Shown: positions 418 to 61,708 of the stretch, piece by piece | How the letters are laid out: each line of letters opens with the position of its first letter | Position numbering within the stretch: position 1 is the first letter of the stretch | Virus record (IMG/VR): IMGVR_UViG_3300043568_002650 | Location: 64,512 to 128,511 of that record | Length of the DNA: 64,000 nt | Origin: a virus | Taxonomy: Duplodnaviria; Heunggongvirae; Uroviricota; Caudoviricetes | Direction: 5' to 3' (one strand) | Made by a program: the position numbers and the translations under genes | Notes under the pieces: model-generated | Told to the model about the DNA's origin: nothing | The model's input: only the letters and a program-made list of their open reading frames with translations | Databases searched by the model: none

Positions 418-963
418 ATGAAGTATATTAAGTTATTTGAGACCTATCAATGGTTAAATAAGGAGAGCTCTGACTCTGACGAGAGGGATTTTATCACTAC
501 TGTAGAGTCTCTGTTAGACTGGGCAGGTGGTCCTGAATGGAGCAGTGATTGGACCTGGCTCGAGGATATTTTGATGGTAGATGACGAACCCTTGGAGGAG
601 GGCGAGGCGATTGGTTACCATGAGTTGCTTAAAAGAGGTAGGGATCAGGAGATAGAGGTTTATTCTCAGCAGGTCGAAGGTCAGGTAGATAGCAGTTGGA
701 CTCTCGATGGGGTAAGCTTTACTCTTATCTCATGGGACTGGCCTTTTACTAGTGACCTAGGTGACCTAACAGATATTGAGAAAAGGGTAGTGGATCGATT
801 AGTTAAGGAGTTGACTGGGGATCGCGTCATGGACTTGGCGAATCTAGTTGATATTATTGAATACGTCCAGTTGGTGATTAGAGAGAAGGGCGAGGATCCC
901 GATAAGGTGAACTCAACGGGCTTTAAGAACTGGTATCTCTTACAGAGATCGGGTGCTAACTGA
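418..963 (+). CDS. hypothetical acidic Trp-rich protein with an N-terminal targeting-like motif (MKYIKLFETYQWLNKE)
   Basis: 181-aa ORF preceded by gataaataaaagagt. N-terminus resembles T4 CTS (KTYQEFIAE). Confidence 0.5.
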   Translation: MKYIKLFETYQWLNKESSDSDERDFITTVESLLDWAGGPEWSSDWTWLEDILMVDDEPLEEGEAIGYHELLKRGRDQEIEVYSQQVEGQVDSSWTLDGVSFTLISWDWPFTSDLGDLTDIEKRVVDRLVKELTGDRVMDLANLVDIIEYVQLVIREKGEDPDKVNSTGFKNWYLLQRSGAN

Positions 964-973
964 CCCTAGAGCC

Positions 974-985
974 GGACTCCGTAGT
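974..985 (+). repeat. GGACTCCGTAGT 12-mer, copy 3, upstream of the ATG at 1014, fused to a late-promoter-like motif
   Basis: ccGGACTCCGTAGTaataaataactaaaagg precedes ATG 1014. Confidence 0.6.
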
Positions 986-1013
986 AATAAATAACTAAAA
1001 GGTAGAAGAATAT

Positions 1014-1514
1014 ATGTTAAAGTCATTCTATGATTTTGTTAATGAGTCTCACTCTGATCAAGGGTTAGAGGATGCACGACACCTAATGGAACTGGGTATG
1101 ATCTCAGCCGGTGATTACTATCGAAAGCTGATTGAGCTTCGTACTGACGATATTAAGAGGTATGCAACTGCAGAATTTATAGTCACCTTTACTACTGGTT
1201 GGTTGGCTCAAAATGGATCGCGAGAGACTCAAGATTGGATCCTAAGGGAGATACCTAGGGTATTACCCGACGGTTTTCTACTCGATCCAGAATCGGTTGG
1301 TCTTGACTCTTGGGAAAGGGCTGACTATGAGGACGATTTGAGAGACGGCTTTGATCCAGAGGAGATATATGGAACCTTTGAAGTTGGGTATCCTGTTTTT
1401 GGGGATGAGGATCTTGATGCTAGAGTTGAGGAGAAACTCGATCAGCTCTATCTAGAGATTCATCAAATGGAGGACATGTTTACTGAAGTCGGCATGGATT
1501 CTAATTATAAATAA
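1014..1514 (+). CDS. hypothetical protein with N-terminal FYDFVNE motif (CTS-like)
   Basis: 166-aa ORF. ATAAATAACTAAAA motif 12 nt upstream. N-terminus MLKSFYDFVNES. Confidence 0.5.
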   Translation: MLKSFYDFVNESHSDQGLEDARHLMELGMISAGDYYRKLIELRTDDIKRYATAEFIVTFTTGWLAQNGSRETQDWILREIPRVLPDGFLLDPESVGLDSWERADYEDDLRDGFDPEEIYGTFEVGYPVFGDEDLDARVEEKLDQLYLEIHQMEDMFTEVGMDSNYK

Positions 1515-1534
1515 CTGGAATAGAGAGTTTAGGC

Positions 1535-2122
1535 TTAGTCGTGACTCCAGTCGCTAGTGTCTTCAATAGTGTCATCATCCACTTCCTCATTGAACCCATC
1601 AATGATCTCAAGGATATCCTCTACCTTAAGTATTGATATTGGACCGTTATATGACCAGGTAGCATCATACGAGTTTTCATCATCTTCGTCTTCATCATCT
1701 TCGTCTTCATACCCTTCTTCAAAGTCCCGGTTAGCATAGAGTGCTCTTAGCTCAAGAGAGGAGTCTCCGCCGAGGTAGACTACCACGGTTACCGGGTCGT
1801 CATACTGCCGCTCATACTCATAATTATTATAGTGGTTCTGTGCCATGTTTACCAGGTCTGAACTAAGTGTAAACTCAATCGTGTTATAGGGAGTTTTGTA
1901 AACTACTGGTTTTCCCCAAATATCAGGTTCTGCAAGGTGTCGACTCTCTAGGTCCTGTAGTAGACTATCTACCCATCCAGTAGGGTCAATCTTCTTAGCT
2001 CCTCTTGTAAACTCAAGAGGATCGATTAGTCCCAAGTCAAGCAGATTTTGTAGGTCACCTGGACTCAGCTGACCTGAGGGCTCTTCATTTTCGTTTATCC
2101 ATTCCTGAAATCCTTTAATCAT
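1535..2122 (-). CDS. hypothetical highly acidic protein with N-terminal FQEWINE motif (CTS-like)
   Basis: 195-aa ORF with DEDEDEDD tract encoded by a 15-nt tandem duplication. MIKGFQEWINENEE N-terminus. TTGATAAATAAAAAAAA lies upstream on the minus strand. Confidence 0.5.
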   Translation of the reverse strand: MIKGFQEWINENEEPSGQLSPGDLQNLLDLGLIDPLEFTRGAKKIDPTGWVDSLLQDLESRHLAEPDIWGKPVVYKTPYNTIEFTLSSDLVNMAQNHYNNYEYERQYDDPVTVVVYLGGDSSLELRALYANRDFEEGYEDEDDEDEDDENSYDATWSYNGPISILKVEDILEIIDGFNEEVDDDTIEDTSDWSHD

Positions 2123-2142
2123 GACGGGTCTCTATTTTTTTT

Positions 2143-2415
2143 TTATTTATCAACCAGATTGGACCCAGAGTCGGACTCCGTAGTCCCAGTAGTGGTGTCA
2201 TGGAAGATCTGACCTAGGTGAAACATGTTTCGTAGGGCAAGTATCCGCTCTTCTCGGGTCTCTACTGTACTCTCTAAGCGGGTAGCAAGCTCTTCGACTA
2301 TCATAAGTTCTAGATTAGGCGAGCTGAATCCTTCCATTCGGTGCACGCTCTTTACCAATTCTTCTCCTAGACTCTCCAAGTTATTTTTCATGCTCCTTCT
2401 TTTTAACCTGTTCAA
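2143..2415 (-). CDS. hypothetical 90-aa charged protein
   Basis: ORF only. It overlaps the next gene by 35 nt. Confidence 0.3.
   Translation of the reverse strand: MNRLKRRSMKNNLESLGEELVKSVHRMEGFSSPNLELMIVEELATRLESTVETREERILALRNMFHLGQIFHDTTTGTTESDSGSNLVDK
2173..2184 (+). repeat. GGACTCCGTAGT 12-mer, copy 4
   Basis: Exact repeat in the divergent region upstream of the minus-strand gene 1535..2122 and inside the 3' end of ORF 2143..2415. Confidence 0.55.
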
Positions 2416-3145: not shown

Positions 3146-3165
3146 AATATTAGTTTTTGCTTGAA

Positions 3166-3176
3166 TTATTATACTA
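3166..3176 (-). promoter_or_regulatory. sigma70-like -10 (TAGTATAATAA on the minus strand) upstream of gene 2381..3145
   Basis: Reverse complement of ttattatacta. One of many TAGTATAAT elements immediately 5' of minus-strand genes. Confidence 0.4.
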
Positions 3177-4884: not shown

Positions 4885-5829
4885 ATGAACTACCTATTAA
4901 ATTATAGAAAATGGAGATCTATCTATGAGGCAGAAGAGTCGAGTGAAAGCCAAAAATCCCTTGTGTTACTCTCTGGACCCAGTGCGTCAGGTAAGACCTA
5001 CTTTGCAATGAACCGACTAAAGGCAAAACACTGGTATTCTGATCTTACTGCCAAGACAGTGCTGATTGGTACTGATAACTTTAATGACAATACAATAGGT
5101 CCTATCTTTATTAAACTAGTAGAGGATTCAGGTATGCCAGCCCTTGCCAAGATTGCAAGCCAAGTTGACAGTCCTCATATCCTTAAGTTATACGATACTG
5201 AGTTTGCACAGTGGAGCAAAAGCGCAAGTCCAGAGGAGAAGAGCAAATATGAAGAGCTTGAACGTGTTGCGGGATACGATCCAAAAAAGTGCAAGGCAAC
5301 TGTTAGGAAGCAACAGGGAAAGGATGGTGACGGACGTGTTAGTGCCATGGCATGGGCAGCACACCTATTGCCTGCAACTGAAATACTTTTTGATGATATC
5401 GGCGACGCAATCAAGAACTACTATGCTGAAGGAGAGATCAGTGACGTTCTTCTTTTTACTCCGCTAGACTACTACTTAGGTAATATAATTTCTCGTAATG
5501 GGAGCAGTAATAAGGCAGAGAAGATAGACACATCGAATCGAGACGCAGGTATCTATCAGTATTGTGACTGGTATAGAGCAGTCGCTGAACCTGACTTAGA
5601 TGATAAGCAGTATTCTGCTGAGGACATGAAAAGCAAGCTTGAAGCCGCCGGTTACTCAAATTCTGATGAACTTCTTCGACTCTTAGGAGTCACTCCTGAA
5701 CTTGAAGAAGGTTTCTATATTGGATTAAAAGACTGGGTAAAGCCTAATACTATCATTAATTCGCGTGACAAGAGCACCGGACGCGCGCAATCAGTCGATG
5801 ACTTTAATTCTTTCTCAGCTCTTCTATAA
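4885..5829 (+). CDS. P-loop kinase-like protein (Walker A GPSASGKT)
   Basis: LLSGPSASGKTYFAMNRL Walker A near the N-terminus, resembling zeta-toxin/polynucleotide-kinase-type P-loop kinases. N-terminus contains SIYEAEE. Confidence 0.5.
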   Translation: MNYLLNYRKWRSIYEAEESSESQKSLVLLSGPSASGKTYFAMNRLKAKHWYSDLTAKTVLIGTDNFNDNTIGPIFIKLVEDSGMPALAKIASQVDSPHILKLYDTEFAQWSKSASPEEKSKYEELERVAGYDPKKCKATVRKQQGKDGDGRVSAMAWAAHLLPATEILFDDIGDAIKNYYAEGEISDVLLFTPLDYYLGNIISRNGSSNKAEKIDTSNRDAGIYQYCDWYRAVAEPDLDDKQYSAEDMKSKLEAAGYSNSDELLRLLGVTPELEEGFYIGLKDWVKPNTIINSRDKSTGRAQSVDDFNSFSALL

Positions 5830-9360: not shown

Positions 9361-9909
9361 ATGAAGTACATTAAAATTTACGAAGATTATACACCAACGA
9401 GTAAAGTCATAGTTGAAGGGTCGTATTCACCAAAGGCTGGAGACTATGATGGTATGCACTCATTCCAATCTAGAAAAAAAGATGGATTTGGAGGTAAGAT
9501 GAATACTAAAGTAAATGAAGCACTTCTAAAATTCTATAAGGAGACTCATAAAAATCCTACAATTACTAATATTGAAATTAAGATGGATGACTCCTCTTGG
9601 AAAGTAACATGGAAGGTGACTATCGAAGAGAGCCGAGACGGCAAAGCATGGATAGGATTGACTAGTCGCGGTGGAGCTGGTAAAAAGGATGGACTTACTG
9701 GATCAGTTGAACGAGCTAAACGTCAAATTGATCGAAAGAAGAAAGATCTTGCCTCAGAATTTAGTGACTCTGCACTTGAAACCAAAGAGGTAAAGGATTT
9801 TGGTTGGCAAGGTAAGGGTGCATATATTCGTCAGATCTTTGTAATATACACTAATCCCGCAAAATACCCTGCAATAAAACCGGATACCGATAATAAACAG
9901 ATTGCTTAA
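9361..9909 (+). CDS. hypothetical basic protein (N-terminus MKYIKIYEDY)
   Basis: 182-aa ORF. AGATAAATAAAAAAT lies immediately upstream. Confidence 0.45.
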   Translation: MKYIKIYEDYTPTSKVIVEGSYSPKAGDYDGMHSFQSRKKDGFGGKMNTKVNEALLKFYKETHKNPTITNIEIKMDDSSWKVTWKVTIEESRDGKAWIGLTSRGGAGKKDGLTGSVERAKRQIDRKKKDLASEFSDSALETKEVKDFGWQGKGAYIRQIFVIYTNPAKYPAIKPDTDNKQIA

Positions 9910-42820: not shown

Positions 42821-43708
42821 TTAAATAAACTTTACGTGTTTTTTCTTAATGAATTTGGAAAAGTCAGTGTCATCCATTTCAGAAACTATTTCAGTAAGGC
42901 CAAATGAGTCTCCAAAATCTGCTCCGTCTAGAGTAATTGAAGTGACTTCAGTTGTAACTGATTCGATATTAGTCTCGCCGTCTGGTGGAGTCATATTGTC
43001 TCCTGGATCATACCACTGACTAAAGGCAACGTCTGATGTAAAGTAGATAATTACTTCAAATCGGCGAAGTTCCATTTCAGAAAGTTTATCGTCTAGCTCA
43101 GGTTTACCTACATAGAGACAATCAAAGGAAGCTTCCCATCCTATTTCTTGAGAACCAGTGCGTTCATTACTATCTATTAAGTCATAAAAAGTATCCTCTG
43201 AAATATCCCAATCTAGCAATATTACCTGTTCTCCTTCTTTAAAAATTGAATCTACCGCATCAGCAACAGCGGTTTCCTCAAGTGACTTAAGAGAATCGGT
43301 AGATTCAAATACATAATTTGAACCGAGTAAGTCGCCTTCGACTGCATCTAGTGCGTCTCTCAAGTTGGTGTGCTTTAGGGTCTTCCAATGATATGGAGTT
43401 TTAGTATTATTACGCACAACACTTAGTTTACCAGGCGTCTTGAAATTAAGAGCATCTTTTAATGAATCTTCACTTCTCCAATTGATTTTTACTCCCTTGA
43501 TCTTATCACCTTCTTGAATAACACGATAGAACGTATCAGATAAGAACATCATTGTTGCACCTGGGCGGAGTTCTGCCCAAGTATTTACATGGGTTGCAAA
43601 AAGCATTTGCTCCTTATTCTTGCCCTTAGGCTTGCCTTTAATCAAGATGATTCCATGCTGTTTCATAGACTCATTAATTGGCTCAAATGGTTTAATGTAC
43701 ATGTTCAT
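42821..43708 (-). CDS. hypothetical 295-aa protein
   Basis: Long ORF. First gene of the 12.5-kb minus-strand block. Confidence 0.45.
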   Translation of the reverse strand: MNMYIKPFEPINESMKQHGIILIKGKPKGKNKEQMLFATHVNTWAELRPGATMMFLSDTFYRVIQEGDKIKGVKINWRSEDSLKDALNFKTPGKLSVVRNNTKTPYHWKTLKHTNLRDALDAVEGDLLGSNYVFESTDSLKSLEETAVADAVDSIFKEGEQVILLDWDISEDTFYDLIDSNERTGSQEIGWEASFDCLYVGKPELDDKLSEMELRRFEVIIYFTSDVAFSQWYDPGDNMTPPDGETNIESVTTEVTSITLDGADFGDSFGLTEIVSEMDDTDFSKFIKKKHVKFI

Positions 43709-43786: not shown

Positions 43787-44527
43787 TTGAAGCATAATGC
43801 ACGCACTTTTAATCAATGGATAAACGAGAAAGTAGAATACAATCGTGATCTTTGTCCTAAATTTTGGGAAGAGGGTAAGATGGACACAGCAATACGAGCA
43901 AAACTTCTTGCAATAGCTGACGATTTCTGGTCTTCACTAAAATTAGAAGTCCCAATTATGGATATTCAATTGACTGGTTCAATAGCTAATTTTAATTGGA
44001 ATAAGGATTCAGATTTAGATGTACATATTATTATTGATTTTGCACAAATTGATGGAAACCTAGAACTAGTTAGAAAAGCCTTAGATGGTCAGAGGTTTAT
44101 GTGGAATCTACGCCATCCAGTAGTTCTTAGAGGACATGATGTTGAATGTTATGTTCAACACAAAGACGAGCAACACGTTGCGTCAGGTCTCTTTTCGATA
44201 CTTAGAGATAAGTGGATAATTGTTCCTAATTGGAGTGAACCTAATATTGATCAGAAGGATGTTGATGAAAAGATGAGAGTCATTAAGACTGAAATCAAGA
44301 TGGTGAAGGTAAAGGCTAGATCAGCTGAGGGTGATGAAGCTCAAAATTTACATGATTACTTAGATCGTATCAAAAAGAAGATCATGAATGATCGTAAAGA
44401 GGGTCTCGCTAAAGACGGCGAATTTGCAGTTGAAAATCTAGTCTTTAAAGAGTTACGCCGAGATGGAACAATTGAAGAAATCATTGACTTGCTATCAGAA
44501 ATATATTCAAAGATATATTCAGAATAA
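43787..44527 (+). CDS. pol-beta-superfamily nucleotidyltransferase with N-terminal TFNQWINE motif (CTS-like)
   Basis: GSIANFNWNKDSDLDVHI matches the hG[GS]x9-13DhD NTase signature. MKHNARTFNQWINEKVE N-terminus. Confidence 0.55.
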   Translation: MKHNARTFNQWINEKVEYNRDLCPKFWEEGKMDTAIRAKLLAIADDFWSSLKLEVPIMDIQLTGSIANFNWNKDSDLDVHIIIDFAQIDGNLELVRKALDGQRFMWNLRHPVVLRGHDVECYVQHKDEQHVASGLFSILRDKWIIVPNWSEPNIDQKDVDEKMRVIKTEIKMVKVKARSAEGDEAQNLHDYLDRIKKKIMNDRKEGLAKDGEFAVENLVFKELRRDGTIEEIIDLLSEIYSKIYSE

Positions 44528-44547: not shown

Positions 44548-45306
44548 ATGCATAAATATTTTAATTTTACGAAAATTTACGAAGCTGAAAAGATGGGAGC
44601 TCCTCTCGATCCAGAAGAGATGGGAATGCCTGGAAGCTTACCTGAAGCTATCCCTACTGATAAATTGGAAGATTTTGAACTACTAGCGAAAGAAAATATC
44701 CTAGAGATTACACTAACTATGAAGGATATGGATGGGCTAGCAAATGGCCAGTCAGTATCTAAAGAGGATGCTAAGTGGAAAGATAAAATAAATGAAACTA
44801 AATCTAAAGATATTAAGCTAGTTATTCTAAATACTAAAAACGATACATCTAAAAACGATGCAGAAGCACTAGTATTTAATCTAGATGATTCAATTACTGG
44901 TGATATAGTAGAAGGAATTAAGTTAGGCAATATTACACAAGTATTAAAAGGAACCGGTGGAGATGGAATTGAAATTCCTGATATTACAGTTAGATTTATC
45001 AAGTCAGTTGAACTAGATACTTCAACTAAAGAAACAGTTGTTCCAGCTTCTCCTGAACAAATTGAGAGTGGTGTAGTTACTCCAAATGCAGTTGCTGGTG
45101 AAATGCCAAATGAATCTAGAGGAATTATGAGTTTTAGTCAATTTGTTAATGAGGGTAAAAAACAAATGGCTAAAGGTAAGGTAGCTAAAAAAGATGCTAC
45201 ACTAAAAAAGAAGCCTAAAAAAGATAAAGGCTTTCCAGATATGAGCGGAGACGGTATCGTTACAAAAAAAGATATCCTAATTGCTAAAGGAGTAATTAAA
45301 AAATAA
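44548..45306 (+). CDS. acidic protein with a basic C-terminal tail and an internal MSFSQFVNEG motif
   Basis: 252 aa. Internal in-frame ATG at 45127 is preceded by GAGGAA and starts MSFSQFVNEGKKQMAKGK..., so possibly a nested 60-aa product. Confidence 0.5.
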   Translation: MHKYFNFTKIYEAEKMGAPLDPEEMGMPGSLPEAIPTDKLEDFELLAKENILEITLTMKDMDGLANGQSVSKEDAKWKDKINETKSKDIKLVILNTKNDTSKNDAEALVFNLDDSITGDIVEGIKLGNITQVLKGTGGDGIEIPDITVRFIKSVELDTSTKETVVPASPEQIESGVVTPNAVAGEMPNESRGIMSFSQFVNEGKKQMAKGKVAKKDATLKKKPKKDKGFPDMSGDGIVTKKDILIAKGVIKK

Positions 45307-45313
45307 ATTAGAT

Positions 45314-46099
45314 ATGAGAATTAATGAATGTTCATGTGGATGCGAAGGAGCATCTAATAACTGTATGAAAAACCGTGAATCTGATGTGAATTATATGTTT
45401 TTTGGAAACCTTGAAACTATGAAGAGAATGATTGATGAACTTGTACAAATGGATCATACTCAAATTGATGAAATCTTAAAAGGTGGTCATGAATGGGCTG
45501 TTGATCATATTGCATCATCGGTTGATGATGTACAAGAAGTTTATAACTTTCTAATGAATCATGCAGCTGTTCCCATGAATAGAGAGATGGACCGTTTTGC
45601 AGAAGATGACATGATGGTTAAGACCTTTGAAAGTTATGTAAACGAAGTTTCAGGTAAAAAATGGAGAGAAATAGAAACTGATTTACGTGGAAGAAAAATG
45701 GGTGCATTTGCAGATAGAGTATCAGCTCACAGTAAGCAGTATGGAACTAATCAAGTTACTGAAGTCAAATTGGTAGGTATGCCGATTAGTGGATATGAAA
45801 GAGAAGAAAAGCATCTATCAGTTACTAATCTTGAACTTAGACAAAAATCTGGTTCAAACTTTAAAATTGTAGGACAAGATTCTGATTTTGGAACAGTTGT
45901 AATTCACGGATTTACAACTAGCGATGGTAGTGTTCAAATGTTCGAAAGCGAAAGAATGCCACTGCTTGCAGTAGATCGAAAAAATGCACTAGATTTAATT
46001 AAATTTCTAATTGACGAAGGAGTATCTTATGAAAAAGAACTTGACTGGAGAAGATTTACGAATGGATATGTCTCCTTTAAAGAAGCATATAATATGTAA
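45314..46099 (+). CDS. hypothetical protein with an N-terminal Cys cluster and an internal TFESYVNEVSG motif
   Basis: 261 aa. CSCGCEGASNNC at the N-terminus. Internal CTS-like motif at about residue 105. Confidence 0.45.
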   Translation: MRINECSCGCEGASNNCMKNRESDVNYMFFGNLETMKRMIDELVQMDHTQIDEILKGGHEWAVDHIASSVDDVQEVYNFLMNHAAVPMNREMDRFAEDDMMVKTFESYVNEVSGKKWREIETDLRGRKMGAFADRVSAHSKQYGTNQVTEVKLVGMPISGYEREEKHLSVTNLELRQKSGSNFKIVGQDSDFGTVVIHGFTTSDGSVQMFESERMPLLAVDRKNALDLIKFLIDEGVSYEKELDWRRFTNGYVSFKEAYNM

Positions 46100-47083: not shown

Positions 47084-47824
47084 ATGCCAGGTAGAGTTTT
47101 AAATTTTTTAGAATTTTCTGATAAATATTCTAATGGAAGTACTGAACCAGCTAGCGTAGACGATATTAAAAACGCTTCCGCTAATTTCGAAGAAGGCTTT
47201 GACCAAGAAACATACGATCAACCACAAATAGGACCAAATAGACCAGTTGCTGGCAACTATGAAGCTACTCCAGCTACACCTGGAGAAGAAGGATCTCCTG
47301 CATTTTCTGCCAACAATACAAAAGATATGAATGCTCCCCAAGAAGCTGAAGAATCTCCAGAGGAAGAAGAAGGAGAGGCTGACACAGAAGAGACAAAGGA
47401 AGATGATGAGGAAGAAGCAGAAGAGGGAAATCCTGAAGCTGGCGCAAACCCTAAAAAGAAAGTAGAAGAAGGTATAACATTAGTAAAAGGATTCACTCAA
47501 TTCGTGAATGAAGGTAAATTTAATTTATTTAAACGTAAATCAAAGGATCCTGAAGCTGCTGAAAATGAAAGAAAAAGAGTTGAATCATTTTGGAATGATC
47601 CCGATTATAATATCCCAGAAGAAACGTATGAAGAATGTACTGACTGTAATGGAAAAGGTTGTGTTGAATGTAATTACGAAGGCCATGTTCCATTAAAGGA
47701 TGATAATACTTATGGATATGCACCAATAGGTGACAAATATGCAAAAGATGATGACTCTTGTGAGACATGTGGAGAAGTTTCTATTTCAAATGAATATGGA
47801 TATTCTTGCGGATGCAATATGTAA
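47084..47824 (+). CDS. acidic disordered N-terminal region + internal GFTQFVNEG motif + C-terminal Cys-rich zinc-finger domain
   Basis: 246 aa. EESPEEEEGEADTEETKEDDEEEAEEG, then KGFTQFVNEGKFN, then CTDCNGKGCVECNYEGH...CETCGE...CGCNM. Confidence 0.5.
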   Translation: MPGRVLNFLEFSDKYSNGSTEPASVDDIKNASANFEEGFDQETYDQPQIGPNRPVAGNYEATPATPGEEGSPAFSANNTKDMNAPQEAEESPEEEEGEADTEETKEDDEEEAEEGNPEAGANPKKKVEEGITLVKGFTQFVNEGKFNLFKRKSKDPEAAENERKRVESFWNDPDYNIPEETYEECTDCNGKGCVECNYEGHVPLKDDNTYGYAPIGDKYAKDDDSCETCGEVSISNEYGYSCGCNM

Positions 47825-49230: not shown

Positions 49231-49674
49231 ATGCGTATTAAGAGACTTTATGAGGCAGATGATGTTCAACAGCTACCAATGAATGGCCAGATGCCACTTC
49301 CTCAAGAGATGCCACAAATGGCTCCACCCACACCAGTTCAATCTCCAGCTGAGATGATGCCGGATTTTGATTTTCAAAATGAACCAGAACAGGAACAACT
49401 TGCGTTACCTCAACCTGATGTAATGACCCTAACTGTGCAAGAACTACTTGATCGTTGTGATGCAATTAATCCTCTTATTTGCATGGGACTAAGACAATTT
49501 ATTGAGTCAAATAATGCAGAGTTACTTAACCAAACTACTGGCGAAGCTCCTGAAGAGACTGAAGATATTACAATAGATGATACTGACGTTAATTTCTCAA
49601 AACAAATGGAACCGCAAGCTCCTGAATTTTCACTAGATCAACCAGCTGAACAATTAGACTTTCCACAAGCATAA
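49231..49674 (+). CDS. Pro/Gln/Glu-rich hypothetical protein (N-terminus MRIKRLYEAD)
   Basis: 147 aa. Late-like motif AAATAAATAACACTATAAAATAAAC upstream. Confidence 0.45.
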   Translation: MRIKRLYEADDVQQLPMNGQMPLPQEMPQMAPPTPVQSPAEMMPDFDFQNEPEQEQLALPQPDVMTLTVQELLDRCDAINPLICMGLRQFIESNNAELLNQTTGEAPEETEDITIDDTDVNFSKQMEPQAPEFSLDQPAEQLDFPQA

Positions 49675-49675: not shown

Positions 49676-49951
49676 ATGAGACTAAAGAGACTAGTTGAAG
49701 GCTTTGGTGCTATTATGATGGAGCCAGATCCTGCTGAACGAATCATGCAGCCCGATACTAAGCGTGCAAATGCAATGATGTTCTATTCGGGATCATCTGG
49801 GACCACTCCAACTCATTGGAATAATTCTCCGTTTCTGGCGGGAAGAAGTGCGAGTAGCGCATTTGGATCTAATCCTAGACTGGAGAAAAAAGTTAAGGTC
49901 TTATCGTATCAAGAGTTTGTCGAGACATCTAATAAGTTTACAAATAAATAA
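49676..49951 (+). CDS. hypothetical protein (N-terminus MRLKRLVEGF, paralogous start to 49231)
   Basis: 91-aa ORF. Confidence 0.4.
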   Translation: MRLKRLVEGFGAIMMEPDPAERIMQPDTKRANAMMFYSGSSGTTPTHWNNSPFLAGRSASSAFGSNPRLEKKVKVLSYQEFVETSNKFTNK

Positions 49952-49968: not shown

Positions 49969-50289
49969 ATGGCTTACGTAAAAAGTTTTAAAGGCTTTCA
50001 AAGTGCTGAAAAAAAGGCGGCTGATGAAGTAACTAGTGGTGCAAATCCTCAAATGATTAAAGAAGAAGGTCCACCAGTAGATACTCAGCTTATACCACAG
50101 TATACTGCATTACAAAAAGAAAAAACCGCTGCGATTCAATTAGCAACTGAAAAAGCAGCTCAAGATAAAAGGGTACTTGAATTACAAGCAACATATGATG
50201 CAGCGGTTCTTAAATCTAATGCTGCACAAAAGAATGCTGAGGCAAACAAGCCAGCTCCGACACCACCGCCGGTTGCACCTACGACATAA
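49969..50289 (+). CDS. coiled-coil hypothetical protein
   Basis: 106 aa. Ala/Lys/Glu-rich with a Pro-rich tail. Confidence 0.4.
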   Translation: MAYVKSFKGFQSAEKKAADEVTSGANPQMIKEEGPPVDTQLIPQYTALQKEKTAAIQLATEKAAQDKRVLELQATYDAAVLKSNAAQKNAEANKPAPTPPPVAPTT

Positions 50290-50732
50290 TGAAAAGAAAC
50301 ATAAAAACATATCATCAATTTATCAATGAATCTACTAAGGAAGTGGTGTACCCAACTAATTTTAAAGGCATGGTGCAAAGTGCATTGGGTGGACTTTATA
50401 CTTCGATTATGTCAATAGCTAGGGAGTTGGCTAATGAAAAAACTGCACGAAACCCAAGTCGATATGATGGAAATATCCAAGAGGTCGATATTACTAGAGC
50501 AATGAACATGATTTTTCATAGCGATTGGAAAAAGATGATTAAGTCTCAAGCTCTAGGCCAAGTAATGAAACATTCAATGGAACGAGCTGGTAAACAGGAT
50601 GATGTAATTGCTAGTAAAAACCAACGAGCTCTAGGTAGATCAATGGGAGATAGAGAGTTTAATGTAGATATTGATAAATCTAGCGTTAGATTTAGTGATG
50701 AAAGAGGCGGAGGAACTGGATCAAATCAATAA
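50289..50732 (+). CDS. hypothetical protein with N-terminus MKRNIKTYHQFINE (closest match to T4 CTS MKTYQEFIAE)
   Basis: 147-aa ORF. Confidence 0.5.
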   Translation: MKRNIKTYHQFINESTKEVVYPTNFKGMVQSALGGLYTSIMSIARELANEKTARNPSRYDGNIQEVDITRAMNMIFHSDWKKMIKSQALGQVMKHSMERAGKQDDVIASKNQRALGRSMGDREFNVDIDKSSVRFSDERGGGTGSNQ

Positions 50733-50738: not shown

Positions 50739-51473
50739 ATGACAGAACAGGAATTAATTACGGACATAAATGATGAGATTACCTTCTCAGGTGCTCTACC
50801 ATACGGTCTTCCTGAAAAGGAGGTAAAACGTATTATTGAGAATGATTCTAGATATTTTTGGGATAACTGGAGACATGCAGTAGAGAGCAGATACCTGCTT
50901 CTTCCATTAGAGTTATTTCAAAATGAAACATTTAAAAGTCTTAGACAAATTCAATTGCCTGAATGCGTTCAATTTGTAGTAGATTTTAAAGAGGCAAAGG
51001 GAGGATCTATCTTTGGAACAATTGATAGAGATTTTGCTGAACAAAAATTTATTGGTGCTGAGATATTCTTAACTCCTTTTATTGGAGAGAGTATTATGTA
51101 TAGAACAGTAATGTTTTCATTTTTAGACCTAACAAAAGCAATGATGATTGATACTATTGCATATGACTATAATAAAAACAGTAAATTACTTGGAGTAATT
51201 GGAAGAACTCCTAAAACACCAGCAGTACTTCGAGTATTTAAAAAACTTGATCAAGATAAATTATTTGAGGACGAGATGTTTCAAAGATACGTTCGTTCCC
51301 ATGCAAAGGTGAGATTAGCTCACATGCTCCAAACATTTAACTATACTCTTCCTGGAGGAGTTACAGTAAACTATCAAAATATTGTGACTACTGCTGAAAA
51401 GGAAATGGAAGACGTTAAAGCAATGATGAAGGGAGAAAATACTCCAGATTGGATGTACTTAACTAGACAATAA
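50739..51473 (+). CDS. putative baseplate/structural protein (upstream of the gp25-like gene)
   Basis: 244-aa ORF in a late-gene block. Call is from position only. Confidence 0.35.
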   Translation: MTEQELITDINDEITFSGALPYGLPEKEVKRIIENDSRYFWDNWRHAVESRYLLLPLELFQNETFKSLRQIQLPECVQFVVDFKEAKGGSIFGTIDRDFAEQKFIGAEIFLTPFIGESIMYRTVMFSFLDLTKAMMIDTIAYDYNKNSKLLGVIGRTPKTPAVLRVFKKLDQDKLFEDEMFQRYVRSHAKVRLAHMLQTFNYTLPGGVTVNYQNIVTTAEKEMEDVKAMMKGENTPDWMYLTRQ

Positions 51474-52275: not shown

Positions 52276-53994
52276 TTAAAGTTGCCCTTCTGCGCCAGTT
52301 TCTCCGCCTTCTTTTACTTCTCCACCGCCTTCTGCTGGTGCTTCTCCTCCTGGAGCTGGTGCGGCTCCTCCACCTGGTGCTCCTCCAGCTGGCATTGCTC
52401 CTCCAGCAGGTGGAGCGGCTTCGGCTTCTTCAGTATCTGCTTGTTGATCAAACCATGATTGATTAGACTTAATATCAGACTCATTCATTTTAAGTTCTTC
52501 TCTAATTAAGTACTCAGTAGCGAAGTATGGAGTACCATCATCTTTCATTACTCCTTTCTTAGCTTGGAATGCAGCTATTCTCTTAGCTTCGATCTCATTC
52601 TTCTTCATCTCTTCAAATACGTTATCGTTATTGTATTTAAGTCCAATCGCATTATTAAATTTATAATCGTCTGCAATATCAGGAAAATCTAGACACATTT
52701 GTAGATACCATGGTTTTACCATCATTTCTGAAAAGGCTGATCTTAATCTATTAACAAATTTCTGATACCGTACCTCTTCACGAGTAATACCTTCAGCATT
52801 AAGAGTAAATGCACCCATTCCAGATTGACCTTCCCATCTTGAATAAGGAATCTTTGAATCCATTTTTAATTTCTTATAGAAATAGTTTAATAATTCTGAA
52901 CCAGATAAGTTTGGACCAGGGGTCTGCAAGGTCTCAATTTTTACTGATTGATTTTGATCATTGACTGGTAGAATATAGTTTTTATAGAATAGGATATTTG
53001 GTTTACCATCAACTTGAAGTTCTCCAGAATCACCATTAAAGTTAATATCCTCCTTAAACATGTTTAGGAATTCACGAACGTCCTCTTGGCCTTTTTGAAA
53101 ACTCTTACTCCCGATTGGAACAGTAGTTGTTAAACGAATCGGCGCATTCATTACGTGCCATATAACTTTACTGTGTTCAATAATTCTCAATAGGTTAAAT
53201 GATCTAATTAGACGTTCAACGAAACTTACTCTCTTTGTTCTAAAGTGATTAGCGTATGAAATATAGATGATTTGTGAGTCATTAAGAACTCGAGTCGAAC
53301 CTGTTTGCTGATCATATTGTAACCACTGCATAAAGATCTTGCCTTTAGCATCCTTCTGTAATTGTGGCGCAATACTGGCGGGATCAAGTTCCTTAAATCC
53401 AATTATCTCTTTAGGCTTTTCCAAGTTATCATAGATGATCTCAAAAGAGAGATGGCCTTCAACTAAGAATTGAAACGCATACTGCCAAGCTGAAATACCT
53501 TCAGCAAATCCCCAAGCAGTATACATTCTTTCAAAGTTATCATTATATTTTCTAAGAACCTTCTCTTGAAAATTTAAACGTTCTTCTTTTGTATCTCCAT
53601 GGTAAAGCATTTTACCAGTAAGATCCTTAGGATAGATAAAGCGTTGTTCTTCATCATACACAATCATGTCATCCACGATAGTCTCAAGAATAAACTCGAT
53701 TTCACCATTTGCTGCAACATCTCTTAGTCGCTCTCTTTTTACTACATAATCTAATTGAAAGAATGCAATTGCCTTTGTTCTTAGCTGAGAAGTAGTATCA
53801 GATATTGCCATTGAGAACTTAAGAAGGTCGTCATTTGCATTTAATCTAGAAGTACGAGACTGTAATTGACCTTCAATGAAACCAATTGCTTGTGAATTTT
53901 TAAGTAAAAGATCTTCATGTCTAGTACCAAACTTACTTAAGTTCGATAGAGCACTACTTACTTTTCTTCCTGATGTATCTAAGAATCCACTCAT
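52276..53994 (-). CDS. g20: portal vertex protein (gp20-like)
   Basis: 572 aa. Central region pattern (...WHVMNAPIRL...YILPVNDQ...KIPYSRW) parallels T4 gp20. Acidic Gly/Ala/Pro-rich C-terminus. Confidence 0.6.
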   Translation of the reverse strand: MSGFLDTSGRKVSSALSNLSKFGTRHEDLLLKNSQAIGFIEGQLQSRTSRLNANDDLLKFSMAISDTTSQLRTKAIAFFQLDYVVKRERLRDVAANGEIEFILETIVDDMIVYDEEQRFIYPKDLTGKMLYHGDTKEERLNFQEKVLRKYNDNFERMYTAWGFAEGISAWQYAFQFLVEGHLSFEIIYDNLEKPKEIIGFKELDPASIAPQLQKDAKGKIFMQWLQYDQQTGSTRVLNDSQIIYISYANHFRTKRVSFVERLIRSFNLLRIIEHSKVIWHVMNAPIRLTTTVPIGSKSFQKGQEDVREFLNMFKEDINFNGDSGELQVDGKPNILFYKNYILPVNDQNQSVKIETLQTPGPNLSGSELLNYFYKKLKMDSKIPYSRWEGQSGMGAFTLNAEGITREEVRYQKFVNRLRSAFSEMMVKPWYLQMCLDFPDIADDYKFNNAIGLKYNNDNVFEEMKKNEIEAKRIAAFQAKKGVMKDDGTPYFATEYLIREELKMNESDIKSNQSWFDQQADTEEAEAAPPAGGAMPAGGAPGGGAAPAPGGEAPAEGGGEVKEGGETGAEGQL

Positions 53995-55946: not shown

Positions 55947-56255
55947 TTAGCCTAAATATTTTTCGATTAGTCCATCAGCATCGTCTGGACCAAGTTTTCC
56001 TTTTTCTACTAATTTAACTAGGAGTGCAGCGATTACTAGTTTTTCTGGCATATCCTCTTCAGACATTTCAAGTTCTCCGTTTTCTGCAGCATTAGCTAAA
56101 TCATTGTGCGCTTCTTCGGCTGCCTCTTCGACCTCTTCCTCAGAACCGACTAGTTCAACTAGTTCATCTAATAATGCTTCGTCTAATTCGAATGGAGTTT
56201 CCATTTCCTCCATCTCATTTAATTTATATTCTCTAAAAGACATAACTCTTTTCAT
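55947..56255 (-). CDS. highly acidic small protein (N-terminus MKRVMSFREYKLNE)
   Basis: 102 aa. Glu/Asp/Ala/Leu-rich. Confidence 0.45.
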   Translation of the reverse strand: MKRVMSFREYKLNEMEEMETPFELDEALLDELVELVGSEEEVEEAAEEAHNDLANAAENGELEMSEEDMPEKLVIAALLVKLVEKGKLGPDDADGLIEKYLG

Positions 56256-58933: not shown

Positions 58934-58951
58934 GAAATAAATAACAAAAAG
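58934..58951 (+). promoter_or_regulatory. late-promoter-like GAAATAAATAACAAAAAG
   Basis: 9 nt before ATG 58961. Confidence 0.45.
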
Positions 58952-58960
58952 AAGTTTGGT

Positions 58961-59587: not shown

Positions 59588-59590
59588 CTT

Positions 59591-60352: not shown

Positions 60353-60371
60353 TTAAAATTAACCATAAAAG

Positions 60372-60974
60372 ATGAATAATGTATTATCATTTGATAAATG
60401 GCATAGGCTTAATGAACAAGTTAACTCAAAGGCTGCTATTGCATCAGTATCAAAACCTGTGTCTAAAACACCTACATTAGGTGGTTCAAAACCTCCTATG
60501 AAAGGAGGAAGTTCAAATAGTTCAGCGGCTAAACCTGCAACTACGAATAAGCCTGCAACTACGAATAAACCAGTACCTAAGCCTGCTGCAACTACGACTA
60601 AACCGACAGTTACAACAAAACCGTCAGTTACGACTAAACCAGCCGCAACTACCAATTATTCAAGTACAGCTATACAAATATCTGATAAAATTAGTAATCT
60701 TTTTAGCGACACTAACTTTTGGGCTAAATTTAAAGGAACTATTAATGATGATGAAGACGGTGCACTAGTTGCATTTAACAACTGGTGGAATTCTTCAATT
60801 AGACCAATGTTATCTAAGCTGCCTTCAACTGATCCAAACGCTCAGACTATAATTAGAACGCAACCACTAATCCAAAAAGCATTACTTGGATCAAGTTCAA
60901 GTGATACTGTTTCGTGGACGATTCGTGGAGCTCAAGGAATGAGTAAAGCATATTCAGTGGATACTGATTTTTAA
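60372..60974 (+). CDS. protein with a mucin-like Thr/Pro/Lys tandem-repeat linker (N-terminus MNNVLSFDKWHRLNE, CTS-like)
   Basis: KPATTNKPATTNKPVPKPAATTTKPTVTTKPSVTTKPAATT encoded by imperfect 21-nt tandem repeats at 60531-60655. Confidence 0.5.
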   Translation: MNNVLSFDKWHRLNEQVNSKAAIASVSKPVSKTPTLGGSKPPMKGGSSNSSAAKPATTNKPATTNKPVPKPAATTTKPTVTTKPSVTTKPAATTNYSSTAIQISDKISNLFSDTNFWAKFKGTINDDEDGALVAFNNWWNSSIRPMLSKLPSTDPNAQTIIRTQPLIQKALLGSSSSDTVSWTIRGAQGMSKAYSVDTDF

Positions 60975-60986
60975 TATTAATATACT

Positions 60987-61286
60987 ATGAGAAAGATTCG
61001 TATACTTCGCCTTAATGAATGGCATCCAGGAGCAAAAGAGATTGATGAAAGTATCCGTGCGTTTATGGAAAGAGGAGAGTATGAACTAAATATCCCTAGA
61101 GAAGACTTATTAGATGCAGTTCGTCTTCTTATCATATATCATGAAGGTGGAAGTATTAAAAACATGTTTAGTCGAGAATCAGAGTTATATCGAGCAATGG
61201 TACATATGGAATTATGTATCGATACGATAATTGACGATGGATATCAGATTAAATGGATCTTGAAAGAATTAAAAAACGTACTATAA
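60987..61286 (+). CDS. hypothetical protein
   Basis: 99-aa ORF. Confidence 0.4.
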   Translation: MRKIRILRLNEWHPGAKEIDESIRAFMERGEYELNIPREDLLDAVRLLIIYHEGGSIKNMFSRESELYRAMVHMELCIDTIIDDGYQIKWILKELKNVL

Positions 61287-61290
61287 TCTT

Positions 61291-61311
61291 AAATAAATAA
61301 AAATAAAAAGT
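61291..61311 (+). promoter_or_regulatory. late-promoter-like TAAATAAATAAAAATAAAAAG
   Basis: 4 nt before ATG 61316. Confidence 0.4.
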
Positions 61312-61315
61312 TAAC

Positions 61316-61708
61316 ATGAAAAATTATATTCCGACTTTTTCAAGATTTATTAATGAAAATTTTGAAGATTCTCAAGAATGGCATAGAGTTAGTAAACAAC
61401 AAATTAAATATAAAGTCTCGTTTCGTGGAATAGATCAAGAATGGGTCGATCAGCTTGTTTCAGGAGAAAGATACCCCAATCAGACATTAGGAGAGATTGA
61501 GGATTATATCAACACAAAACTAGCTAATTACTTTGGAAAATTATCAAGTCAATTGAAATACGATACTCGTATGGGAGTAGTTGCTGGAAGAAACAGCGGA
61601 TTTTTCTTTATTACTTCAATCAGAGAACCTGAAATTATTGAAAAAGCTATGGAAGCAATATTTCCTATGATATCTGATTTTAAGATAACTCAAATAGAAA
61701 AACATTAA
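61316..61708 (+). CDS. hypothetical protein with N-terminal TFSRFINE motif (CTS-like)
   Basis: MKNYIPTFSRFINENFED N-terminus. 130 aa. Confidence 0.5.
   Translation: MKNYIPTFSRFINENFEDSQEWHRVSKQQIKYKVSFRGIDQEWVDQLVSGERYPNQTLGEIEDYINTKLANYFGKLSSQLKYDTRMGVVAGRNSGFFFITSIREPEIIEKAMEAIFPMISDFKITQIEKH

What the first reader, a model, noticed from the sequence alone, without database searches (positions are those of the whole stretch)
418..61708. Expanded family of proteins carrying a T4-CTS-like N-terminal motif (F-x-x-[FW]-[IVL]-N-E): a candidate arsenal of capsid-packaged, injected proteins
At least 12 otherwise unrelated ORFs begin with the same short motif, usually at residues 4-12.
- 1014: MLKSFYDFVNE
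- 1535(-): MIKGFQEWINE
- 19936: MQNKVFDFKSFINE
- 28101: MELLSFNQFINE
- 30652: MLNFNQWLNHINE
- 43787: MKHNARTFNQWINE
- 50289: MKRNIKTYHQFINE
- 60372: MNNVLSFDKWHRLNE
- 61316: MKNYIPTFSRFINE
- weaker: 418 MKYIKLFETYQWLNKE, 18057(-) MNGILNFSQWCNTGELNE, 55947(-) MKRVMSFREYKLNE
A second flavour is M[KR]x[IL]K[IL][YF]E at 9361, 25915, 49231, 49676, 4885 and 44548.
This closely resembles the T4 capsid-targeting sequence MKTYQEFIAE of internal proteins IPI-III. That sequence targets proteins into the prohead and is removed by the prohead protease gp21 after Glu, with cleavage consensus [LI]-x-E.
In T4 only a few proteins carry a CTS. Here a 64-kb window carries a dozen cargo proteins, including a nucleotidyltransferase (43787), a PRTase-like protein (28101) and large acidic proteins. 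Most are driven by late-type promoters.
The implication is an unusually large set of virion-packaged effectors that are co-injected with DNA, as T4 IPI is injected to block GmrSD. Such cargo would be prime candidates for new anti-defence functions.
Basis: partly seen in the sequence, partly recalled or inferred. Interest (0 to 1): 0.85.

Follow-up and report, generated by a model that had tools for sequence, protein, structure and literature searches.

The report
Many genes with T4 capsid-targeting tag
About twenty unrelated late genes of this uncultured T4-like phage start with the short tag that phage T4 uses to load proteins into its head, so they are probably packed into the virion and injected with the DNA: a known mechanism, used here on an unusually large scale.

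Summary
The strict motif Ar-x-x-Ar-[IVL]-N-E sits at residues 4-14 of 7 ORFs (0.39 expected). [IVL]NE lies in the first 22 residues of 14 of 106 ORFs (2.2 expected). Three more copies are internal, and several extra members were missed.

The window belongs to a distant T4-like phage with a T4-type portal and gp13. Relatives carry a gp21-type protease and a gp23-type capsid protein. The motif keeps the four positions shown experimentally to matter in the T4 capsid-targeting sequence MKTYQEFIAE: Y4 and F7 for targeting, I8 and E10 for cleavage. Strings such as MKTYQEFINE head annotated internal-head-protein genes of cultured T-even phages.

Motif genes:
- sit behind T4-late-like promoters (ATAAATA);
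- share nothing beyond the tag;
- occupy hypervariable cassette loci.

In relatives the protease is fused to a scaffold-like domain. That domain holds about ten 14-residue repeats with the same Y-x-x-Y-[LIV]-x-E signature. The capsid protein has an invariant [LIV]-[FN]-E near residue 55.

The best reading is a T4-type targeting and cleavage tag on at least 20 cargo or core proteins. Packaging, cleavage, injection and anti-defence roles are untested. This is a new variant of a known kind.

The parts
418..963 (+). Tagged gene, 181 aa. N-terminus MKYIKLFE-TYQWLNKE carries both flavours. Predicted mature part is acidic (pI 4.1).
   Evidence: (ATAAATA at -14)
1014..1514 (+). Tagged gene, 166 aa, MLKSFYDFVNE|S. 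Strict motif. Acidic.
1535..2122 (-). Tagged gene, 195 aa, MIKGFQEWINE|N. Strict motif. Acidic.
4885..5829 (+). Tagged gene, 314 aa, MNYLLNYRKWRSIYE|A (flavour B). Contains a P-loop-like GPSASGKT.
9361..9909 (+). Tagged gene, 182 aa, MKYIKIYE|D (flavour B). Basic mature part.
18057..19568 (-). Tagged gene, 503 aa, MNGILNFSQWCNTGELNE|N. Motif has an insertion.
19936..21444 (+). Tagged gene, 502 aa, MQNKVFDFKSFINE|V. Strict motif. Acidic. No ATAAATA found upstream.
25915..26250 (+). Tagged gene, 111 aa, MKRYIQLYE|S (flavour B). Lies downstream of late gene 25589.
28101..29228 (+). Tagged gene, 375 aa, MELLSFNQFINE|GAYL. All 21 homologues keep Ar..Ar[IVL]NE|GAYL. In the AF2 model the tag is disordered and the core is weakly PRTase-like.
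30652..31245 (+). Tagged gene, 197 aa, MLNFNQWLNHINE|N. Matches PHROGs annotated as endolysin (head and packaging), tail injection transglycosylase and head protein.
42821..43708 (-).
43787..44527 (+). Tagged gene, 246 aa, TTG start, MKHNARTFNQWINE|K. Pol-beta-type nucleotidyltransferase fold. 1292 homologues; 106 of the best 120 keep the motif.
44548..45306 (+). 252 aa. N-terminal MHKYFNFTKIYE|A plus an internal MSFSQFVNE|G (nt 45133-45153), followed by a very basic tail. The internal site is conserved in orthologues.
45314..46099 (+). 261 aa. MRINE|CSCGC at the N-terminus plus an internal KTFESYVNE|V (nt 45626-45646). The part after the internal site differs between relatives.
47084..47824 (+). 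246 aa. Conserved, very acidic N-terminal 136 aa, then an internal KGFTQFVNE|G (nt 47492-47512). A variable middle and a Cys-rich C-terminus follow.
49231..49674 (+). 147 aa, MRIKRLYE|A (flavour B). Very acidic. First gene of a conserved late cluster upstream of the gp13-like gene.
49676..49951 (+). 91 aa, MRLKRLVE|GFGA. Orthologues in relatives read M..F..[FY][IL]NE|V.GA at the same place, which links the two flavours.
50289..50732 (+). 147 aa, MKRNIKTYHQFINE|STKEVVYPTNFKG. The most conserved tagged protein, found in 47 related loci. In some relatives the tag reads KTYQEFINE, as in T4.
55947..56255 (-). 102 aa, MKRVMSFREYKLNE|M. Very acidic (33% D+E). Conserved in 47 loci.
60372..61708 (+). 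Hypervariable cassette locus between PhoH and the helicase. It holds three tagged genes: 60372-60974 MNNVLSFDKWHRLNE, 60987-61286 MRKIRILRLNE and 61316-61708 MKNYIPTFSRFINE. Relatives carry different tagged ORFs at this position.
52276..53994 (-). T4 gp20-type portal gene. Context that marks the phage as T4-like.
50739..51473 (+). T4 gp13-like neck protein gene, directly downstream of the conserved tagged cluster.
   Evidence: precomputed PF26809; my own Pfam scan found nothing. Weak phmmer match of T4 gp13 to a family orthologue, E = 0.0098.

Best explanation
The N-terminal peptide is the local version of the T4 capsid-targeting sequence (CTS). Its consensus is x3-4-[IV]-K-[TS]-[FY]-x-x-[FWY]-[IVL]-N-E, with a shorter variant ending in [IL]-[YF]-E.

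**Proposed steps**
1. Late in infection the tagged proteins are made from T4-late-type promoters.
2. The two aromatic residues dock the tag onto the scaffolding core of the prohead.
3. The gp21-type prohead protease cuts after the Glu of [LIV]-x-E.
4. The mature protein stays inside the head. Internal copies of the motif would be further cleavage or docking points that separate modules.
5. Some of these proteins are then delivered into the next host with the DNA.

**Shown here**
- The motif, its enrichment at N-termini, and its conservation in orthologues whose flanking residues diverge.
- Its identity with the functional positions of the T4 CTS.
- The link to late promoters.
- The T4-type head machinery in the family.
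- The hypervariable cassette loci.

**Inferred, not shown**
- Docking to the scaffold.
- Cleavage after Glu.
- Retention in the head.
- Injection.
- Any anti-defence role.
For: 1. **Enrichment.** The motif is 18-fold enriched at N-termini in the window and 14-fold in 80 related loci.
2. **Match to T4.** The T4 CTS is MKTYQEFIAE. Residues 4 and 7 carry targeting, residues 8 and 10 carry processing, and gp21 cuts after L/I-x-E (PMC9026906). The motif here keeps those four positions. The family consensus from 117 unique tags is K-T-[FY]-x-[QE]-F-I-N-E.
3. **Wider occurrence.** An IMG/VR scan for DNA encoding KTYxxFINE gave 96 unique instances. Of these, 59 lie within 8 residues of an ORF start. 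They include ip6/ip9 'internal head protein' genes of E. coli phages VR20/VR7 and 'internal virion protein' genes of Salmonella phage STML-198/Melville.
4. **T4-type head genes.** The portal and gp13 are in the window. A Peptidase_S77 protease and a Gp23-family capsid protein lie on the same contigs as portals 73-88% identical to the window's.
5. **Scaffold repeats.** In 52 unique family proteins the protease is fused to a scaffold-like C-terminal region. It holds 5-12 (mostly 10) repeats of 14 residues: N-x-S-I-x-Y-x-E-Y-[LVI]-[AG]-E-x-[LV]. This is the same Ar-x-x-Ar-[LIV]-x-E signature.
6. **Capsid protein site.** All 79 family capsid proteins found have [LIV]-F-E or [IL]-N-E at about residue 53-56. 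These are the two flavours seen on the tagged genes.
7. **Promoters.** Late-promoter association has P = 3e-7, and no motif gene has an early-type promoter.
8. **Cassette locus.** The PhoH-helicase gap holds different tagged ORFs in each relative: 21 of 44 ORFs there carry a tag.
9. **Structure models.** In AF2 models of 43787 and 28101 the tag is the only disordered N-terminal segment, and the fold starts right after ...NE.
10. **Cargo plausibility.** One cargo, 30652, matches PHROG families annotated as endolysin (head and packaging), tail injection transglycosylase and head protein.
11. **Internal control.** The flanks of the head genes in 80 relatives have only 1 strict motif in 1042 ORFs.
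Against: - There are no proteomic or N-terminal sequencing data for any member of this phage family.
- The protease, scaffold and capsid genes were found in relatives, not on the window's own contig.
- The capsid-protein cleavage site is placed by analogy. Its alignment to the T4 gp23 site is ambiguous.
- T4 IPs are small and highly basic. Here 16 of 22 predicted mature parts have pI below 6, and several are 300-500 aa.
- Flavour B alone is only 3-fold enriched (P = 0.01).
- [LIV]-x-E as such is not enriched at N-termini. The case therefore rests on the fuller motif.
- The more distant relative LR756500 shows no enrichment around its head genes.
- The 'internal head protein' annotations in cultured phages were probably themselves assigned from the leader sequence.
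Confidence: 0.75

Rival explanations
1. The tag is a real prohead-targeting and cleavage signal, but most tagged proteins are assembly components of the prohead core. On this reading they resemble T4 gp67, gp68 and gp22: they are degraded or expelled at maturation and are not delivered as effectors.
For: - Several members are conserved across the family and sit next to the neck genes: 49231, 49676, 50289 and 55947, present in 32-47 loci.
- Many are small and extremely acidic (pI about 4.1, 20-33% D+E). This resembles T4 gp67, whose sequence is acid-rich.
- 47084 has a long acidic N-terminal part in front of an internal site.
Against: - Other members are enzymes or enzyme-like folds: an NTase, a PRTase-like protein and a transglycosylase-like protein.
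- The cassette genes turn over between close relatives in the way T4 ip loci do. That is not expected of assembly parts.
Confidence: 0.2
2. The shared N-terminus is a by-product of translation initiation in a Shine-Dalgarno-poor system. AT-rich, unstructured first codons would favour K, N, I, F and E.
For: - Only 10 of 106 ORFs have an SD-like 4-mer.
- The motif is built largely from AT-rich codons.
Against: - Order and spacing are fixed, and Trp (TGG) is frequent at the second aromatic position.
- The motif is absent from genes behind early-type promoters.
- It is nearly absent (1 of 1042 ORFs) from head-gene flanks of the same phage family.
- Conserved internal copies exist.
- The motif persists in orthologues at 29-40% identity while its neighbours change.
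Confidence: 0.02
3. The tag directs proteins to a different destination or partner than the capsid interior. Possibilities are another late structure, a chaperone, or a protease that activates pro-proteins in the cytoplasm.
For: - Nothing here shows physical location.
- The cargo differs in charge and size from the T4 IPs.
Against: - The four conserved positions equal the T4 CTS functional positions.
- The same signature is repeated in the scaffold domain fused to the prohead protease and occurs at the capsid-protein N-terminus.
- The tags contain no hydrophobic signal-peptide-like stretch.
Confidence: 0.05
4. The conserved late promoter plus leader-coding DNA is kept mainly as a recombination handle that shuffles gene cassettes. 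The peptide itself would have no function.
For: - Cassette loci have near-identical promoter regions (AATAAATAAAAATAAAA) in front of different ORFs.
- A 13-mer repeat flanks three cassettes at the left end of the window.
- Promoter-linked shuffling motifs are described in T4-like phages (PMC4122927, abstract).
Against: - Codons of the motif vary synonymously, so conservation is at the peptide level.
- The motif is kept in widely diverged orthologues.
- Shuffling is compatible with the tag being functional and does not replace that explanation.
Confidence: 0.03

Closest known systems
T4 internal proteins IPI, IPII, IPIII and their capsid-targeting sequence MKTYQEFIAE
   Same: - A short N-terminal leader with an aromatic at position 4, an aromatic at 7, an aliphatic at 8 and Glu at 10.
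- Otherwise unrelated mature proteins.
- Late expression.
- Hypervariable loci.
- A T4-type portal, protease and capsid protein in the same phage lineage.
   Different: - Asn instead of Ala before the Glu.
- A longer leader, with the Glu most often at residue 14 rather than 10.
- At least 20 tagged genes in 64 kb, against 3 Ips in T4.
- Cargo is often acidic, reaches 500 aa and includes enzyme folds.
- Conserved internal copies of the motif exist.
ip genes of other T-even phages (for example ip6/ip9 of E. coli phages VR7/VR20, 'internal virion protein' of Salmonella phage STML-198/Melville)
   Same: Their leaders read MKTYQEFINE or MKTYE[ED]FINE. That is the FINE variant found here.
   Different: - Those phages carry a handful of such genes, in the known ip loci.
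- They are close relatives of T4.
- The window's portal is below 40% identical to any record in the phage collection searched.
T4 Alt, gp67, gp68, gp22, gp23, gp24: other substrates of the gp21 prohead protease (L/I-x-E)
   Same: - Cleavage after Glu in [LIV]-x-E is the proposed processing step.
- An enzyme cargo (Alt) and acidic core proteins (gp67, gp68) both have precedents.
   Different: In this family the protease is fused to a scaffold-like domain with about ten 14-residue Y-x-x-Y-[LIV]-x-E repeats. In T4, gp21 and the scaffold gp22 are separate proteins.
Processed head and ejection proteins of phiKZ-like giant phages (phiKZ, 201phi2-1, SPN3US)
   Same: Many different head proteins (19 processed in 201phi2-1) are cut after Glu by a diverged gp21 homologue. 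A large protein mass is ejected into the host.
   Different: - The cleavage motif there is S/A-x-E.
- No common N-terminal targeting tag is described there.
- The head machinery is much more diverged from T4.
P1 Dar anti-restriction proteins and the T7/P22 ejection proteins
   Same: They are virion-packaged proteins that are delivered with the DNA. Some are anti-restriction proteins (titles and abstracts).
   Different: They are incorporated through protein-specific assembly hierarchies and not through a portable 10-15-residue leader.

Membership tests
T4-type CTS-bearing internal/core head proteins | The phage builds its head with the T4-type machinery: gp20 portal, gp21 (S77) prohead protease and gp23-family capsid protein. 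| tested here: met
   Portal_T4 and gp13 are in the window. Peptidase_S77 (41 bits, cutoff 27) and Gp23 (123 bits) lie on contigs that also carry portals 73-88% identical to the window's. They were not found on the window's own contig.
T4-type CTS-bearing internal/core head proteins | An N-terminal leader of about 10 residues with the residues needed for targeting (aromatics at CTS positions 4 and 7) and for processing (aliphatic at 8, Glu at 10). | tested here: met
   Ar-x-x-Ar-[IVL]-N-E occurs in 7 strict and about 7 relaxed N-termini in the window. 62 of 117 unique family tags have both aromatics. The T4 requirements are taken from PMC9026906.
T4-type CTS-bearing internal/core head proteins | The leader is removed by the prohead protease after Glu. 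| not testable with these tools
   Only indirect support exists. The same signature is repeated in the protease-fused scaffold domain and at the capsid-protein N-terminus. The tag is disordered in AF2 models.
T4-type CTS-bearing internal/core head proteins | Late transcription together with head genes. | tested here: met
   ATAAATA (compare the T4 late promoter TATAAATA, from my own knowledge) lies within 80 nt upstream of 15 of 21 motif genes, against 11 of 85 others (P = 3e-7). The rest follow a late gene in the same orientation. The protease-scaffold gene in relatives has the same element. This is a promoter motif only, with no expression data.
T4-type CTS-bearing internal/core head proteins | Mature parts are unrelated to each other, and the genes sit in hypervariable loci. 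| tested here: met
   No BLASTP similarity among 23 mature parts. The PhoH-helicase gap holds different tagged ORFs in nearly every relative.
T4-type CTS-bearing internal/core head proteins | Physical presence inside the capsid and ejection into the host. | not testable with these tools
   No proteomic or imaging data exist for this uncultured family.
T4 IP proteins in the narrow sense (IPI-III) | Small, highly basic, DNA-associated mature proteins. | tested here: not met
   Only 6 of 22 predicted mature parts have pI above 9. 16 have pI 4.1-5.7, and sizes reach 488 aa. The T4 IPs are described as highly basic in PMC8442874.
T4 IP proteins in the narrow sense (IPI-III) | Inhibition of GmrSD-type (type IV) restriction enzymes. 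| not testable with these tools
   This function is known for T4 Ip1-3 (PMC12373910). No homology to them was detected, and the cargo here has no informative family hits.

The most novel reading that the evidence does not exclude
Cargo loading by scaffold mimicry. In this phage family the prohead protease is fused to a scaffold made of about ten 14-residue (two-heptad) repeats carrying Y-x-x-Y-[LIV]-x-E. The N-terminal tags of at least 20 unrelated proteins per 64 kb would be single copies of that repeat unit. On this reading:
- any protein that acquires one repeat-like leader co-assembles with the scaffold;
- it is released inside the head by the same cut that dismantles the scaffold;
- this makes the head an open, fast-evolving delivery vehicle for dozens of enzymes and inhibitors, possibly 40 or more per genome;
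- the vehicle would work in a lineage far from T4.
Probability: 0.35. Interest if true: 0.75.

Novelty: new variant of a known kind. Interest (0 to 1): 0.55.

Why it matters
**A cheap sequence handle on injected proteins.** Proteins injected with phage DNA act before any phage gene is expressed. The three T4 examples are all inhibitors of type IV restriction enzymes (PMC12373910). If the tag works here as it does in T4, it marks at least 20 candidate virion-delivered proteins in one window of an uncultured phage family. These include enzyme-like folds. The same search recovers tagged ORFs in many other viral contigs.

**A testable rule for CTS recognition.** The match between the tag and the scaffold repeat suggests how a CTS is recognised. 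That point is still unresolved for T4. It also bears on the use of CTS fusions to load foreign proteins into phage heads.

Tried and rejected
- **Nucleotide search of the window against the phage collection.** Megablast found no match.
- **T4 head proteins against the first 80 related loci.** phmmer found only the portal and a marginal gp13 match (E = 0.0098), with no protease or capsid protein. A profile search from LR756500-type capsid proteins was needed to reach them.
- **Walking off the window ends.** Exact-protein look-ups gave about 10 kb on the right and about 6 kb on the left, but not the head genes.
- **Metagenome scan with the relatives' protease.** It did not return the window's own contig.
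- **Family searches on 20 tagged proteins.** Pfam and PHROGs gave almost nothing. The exceptions were a sub-threshold NTP_transf_2 hit, phrog_36119 (unknown function) and transglycosylase-type PHROGs for 30652. A PDB sequence search for 28101 gave nothing significant.
- **Aligning the family capsid protein to T4 gp23.** The alignment was ambiguous around the T4 cleavage site, so it cannot fix the cleavage position.
- **Tandem Repeats Finder on the protease-scaffold gene.** It did not detect the 14-residue repeats at DNA level. They are visible only in the protein.
- **Translation-bias, paralogy and signal-peptide readings.** All were considered and rejected.
- **Literature search.** Within the library searched, I found no paper describing CTS-type tags in metagenomic or uncultured T4-like phages.

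Full report
**What the window is**

The 64-kb window (GC about 36%) has about 106 non-overlapping ORFs of 50 aa or more.
- It encodes a T4 gp20-type portal (52276-53994, minus strand) and a gp13-like neck protein (50739-51473).
- It also encodes a family-B DNA polymerase fragment, PhoH and a DEAD/ResIII-type helicase by precomputed Pfam. A 494-aa and a 297-aa ORF look like NAMPT and ribose-phosphate pyrophosphokinase by eye only.
- No record in the phage collection is close. Megablast finds nothing.
- The best portal matches are uncultured huge phages (LR756500, 38%) and Prevotella Lak phages (about 32%), among more than 1900 T4-like records.
- It is therefore a distant, uncultured member of the T4-like phages.
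- Portal-based retrieval gave 80 related IMG/VR loci with 61-97% portal identity, on contigs up to 207 kb.

**The observation**

- In six-frame translation the strict pattern [FY]..[FWY][IVL]NE occurs 11 times.
- Ten copies are in frame in genes, seven at residue offsets 4-7 and three deep inside genes 44548, 45314 and 47084.
- Measured against the internal rate of the same proteins, the strict motif is 18-fold enriched at N-termini (7 against 0.39, P = 2e-7).
- [IVL]NE within the first 22 residues occurs in 14 of 106 ORFs against 2.2 expected (P = 9e-8).
- The 'second flavour' [IL][YF]E is only 3-fold enriched (P = 0.01).
- Synonymous codons differ between copies, and the mature parts show no pairwise similarity. 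A short peptide is what is conserved.
- In the 80 related loci the strict motif is N-terminal in 75 of 1471 ORFs, against 5.2 expected.

**Is it the T4 capsid-targeting sequence?**

The T4 CTS is MKTYQEFIAE (PMC8442874).
- Mutagenesis placed targeting mainly at residues 4 and 7, and processing at residues 8 and 10.
- The prohead protease gp21 cuts after L/I-x-E (PMC9026906).
- The motif here conserves those four positions. The consensus of 117 unique family tags is [IV]-K-[TS]-[FY]-x-[QE]-F-[IL]-N-E, with the Glu most often at residue 14.
- Some relatives read MEKLVKTYQEFINE.
- A scan of IMG/VR for DNA encoding KTYxxFINE returned 96 unique instances, and 59 lie within 8 residues of the start of an ORF.
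- Among them are E. coli phages VR20/VR7, where the genes are annotated ip6/ip9 'internal head protein'. Salmonella phage STML-198/Melville is also among them, annotated 'internal virion protein'.
- Many other hits lie in contigs with T4-type portal, neck, sheath or terminase genes.
- The FINE variant of the CTS is therefore already in use in cultured T-even phages. The tag in the window belongs to the same class.

**Context that fits a late, head-directed function**
- A T4-late-like element, ATAAATA, lies within 80 nt upstream of 15 of 21 motif genes and of only 11 of 85 other genes (Fisher P = 3e-7). The T4 consensus TATAAATA is cited from my own knowledge.
- Of the six motif genes without it, five follow a late gene in the same orientation. 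The sixth, 19936, has no ATAAATA nearby.
- None has the TATAAT-type element seen in front of the presumed early genes.
- The gap between PhoH and the helicase holds three tagged genes in the window. Their homologues occur in only 1-3 of the roughly 30 relatives that keep both flanking genes.
- The relatives carry other tagged ORFs there instead. 21 of 44 ORFs in that gap bear a tag, each behind the same promoter.
- This is the behaviour described for T-even ip loci (PMC12373910).

**The head machinery of the family**

The protease and capsid genes are not in the window or its immediate flanks. A profile built from LR756500-type capsid proteins reached them in IMG/VR. A second scan then collected 80 family loci.
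- Some of these contigs also carry the family portal. One example is the 68-kb contig of L017/L331, whose portal is 88% identical to the window's. Another is the 138-kb contig of L076/L242.
- Pfam confirms Peptidase_S77 and Gp23.
- By synteny with the 68-kb contig, the protease and capsid genes should lie about 15-19 kb to the right of the window end. This is an inference.

Two features bear directly on the finding.
- First, the protease is the N-terminal domain of a protein of about 655 aa. Its C-terminal part contains 5-12 (mostly 10) repeats of 14 residues, N-x-S-I-x-Y-x-E-Y-[LVI]-[AG]-E-x-[LV]. This is the same aromatic-x-x-aromatic-[LIV]-x-E signature as the tags (52 unique proteins). The repeats are visible only at protein level.
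- Second, all 79 capsid proteins found have [LIV]-F-E (one subclade) or [IL]-N-E (the other) at about residue 53-56, in an otherwise variable stretch. This is where a T4-like propeptide would end, although the alignment to the T4 gp23 site is ambiguous.
- The two forms match the two flavours on the tagged genes.
- The orthologues of 49676 switch between MRLKRLVE and M..F..Y[IL]NE.
- The two flavours are therefore best read as equivalent [LIV]-x-E sites.

**Internal copies**

The internal motifs of 44548, 45314 and 47084 are conserved in orthologues.
- They are preceded by conserved in-frame sequence.
- They are followed by segments that differ between relatives: a basic tail, a 150-aa domain or short basic peptides, and Cys-rich ends.
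- They look like module boundaries. They may be internal cleavage or docking sites, as in T4 proteins with long or double propeptides.

**Cargo**

Most tagged proteins have no family assignment.
- 43787 belongs to a large family of 1292 homologues, and 106 of the best 120 keep the tag. Its AF2 model (pLDDT 88) has a Pol-beta-type nucleotidyltransferase fold resembling aminoglycoside nucleotidyltransferases and CD-NTases.
- 28101 has 21 homologues down to 29% identity, and all keep Ar..Ar[IVL]NE|GAYL. Its model (pLDDT 82) gives only weak matches, mostly to type I phosphoribosyltransferases.
- 30652 matches PHROGs annotated as endolysin (head and packaging), tail injection transglycosylase and head protein.
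- In both models the tag is the disordered N-terminal segment.
- Predicted mature parts are mostly acidic (16 of 22 with pI 4.1-5.7) and up to 488 aa, unlike the basic T4 IPs.
- Conserved, small, very acidic members near the neck genes are more likely core components than effectors.

**Controls and rivals**
- A translation-initiation bias is contradicted in several ways. The motif has fixed order and frequent Trp, and it is absent from genes with early-type promoters. Only 1 strict motif occurs in 1042 ORFs flanking the head genes of the same family. The motif also persists in diverged orthologues.
- Paralogy is contradicted.
- A purely DNA-level role in cassette shuffling is contradicted by synonymous variation. 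Promoter-plus-leader homology may nevertheless help the cassettes move.
- A destination other than the prohead cannot be excluded without experiments. It would leave the scaffold repeats and the T4 match unexplained.

**Verdict**

- The thing is a T4-type capsid-targeting and cleavage leader, carried by at least 20 genes in 64 kb of an uncultured T4-like phage.
- The mechanism is known, so this is not categorically new.
- Four things are new:
  - the scale;
  - the non-IP-like cargo;
  - the conserved internal copies;
  - the match between the tag and a repeat unit of a protease-fused scaffold.
- In the literature library searched I found no description of CTS-type tags in uncultured T4-like phages.
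- Packaging, cleavage, injection and any anti-defence function remain to be shown.

Noticed in passing
The copies at 381, 973 and 2172 lie next to the late promoters of tagged genes 418, 1014 and 1535(-). It may be a cassette-boundary or terminator element, like the shuffling motifs described in T4-like phages.
   Followed up: partly
window 3527-4333, 12024-14807, 15898-16098; also L331:8128-8733: Three otherwise different genes share a second N-terminal module of about 35 aa, MSFINWGSESxEQKEIRxRxEEQ. Each sits behind AACTAAAATAAC plus ATAAATA. A relative has the same module on a gene about 0.5 kb downstream of the capsid gene. It is probably a common attachment domain of fibre or decoration proteins.
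   Followed up: partly
L331:3996-5972, L242:8000-9967 and 50 further family loci: The prohead protease (Peptidase_S77) is fused to a scaffold-like region with about ten 14-residue repeats. A J-domain protein gene lies directly upstream in two relatives checked (L331, L321), and an ORF with a J-domain-like motif precedes it in L242.
   Followed up: yes
window 48450-48914 (+): A retropepsin-like protease domain (PF05618, E = 3e-15) sits in the late gene cluster. Its N-terminus MIRLVE resembles the short tag flavour.
   Followed up: no
window 53991-54731 (-): An HNH-type motif (read by eye) plus faint NUMOD Pfam hits suggest a homing-endonuclease-like gene. It overlaps the start of the portal gene by 4 nt and has no homologue in any of the 80 related loci. 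It looks like a recent mobile insertion.
   Followed up: partly
window 58208-58296 (+): ARAGORN calls a tRNA-Pyl with anticodon CTA. The call lies antisense inside the DNA polymerase ORF (57406-58842, minus strand), so it is probably spurious.
   Followed up: no
whole window: Only 10 of 106 ORFs have a Shine-Dalgarno-like 4-mer upstream. Three promoter-like motif classes recur: TAGTATAAT-type, AACTAAAATAAC and ATAAATAA.
   Followed up: partly
L007:4920-5705 (left of the window) and window 1-400: About 0.3 kb to the left of the window start lie a serine recombinase (Resolvase) gene and two Lcl_C-domain genes. Their relation to the tagged-gene cassettes at 418-2122 was not examined.
   Followed up: no
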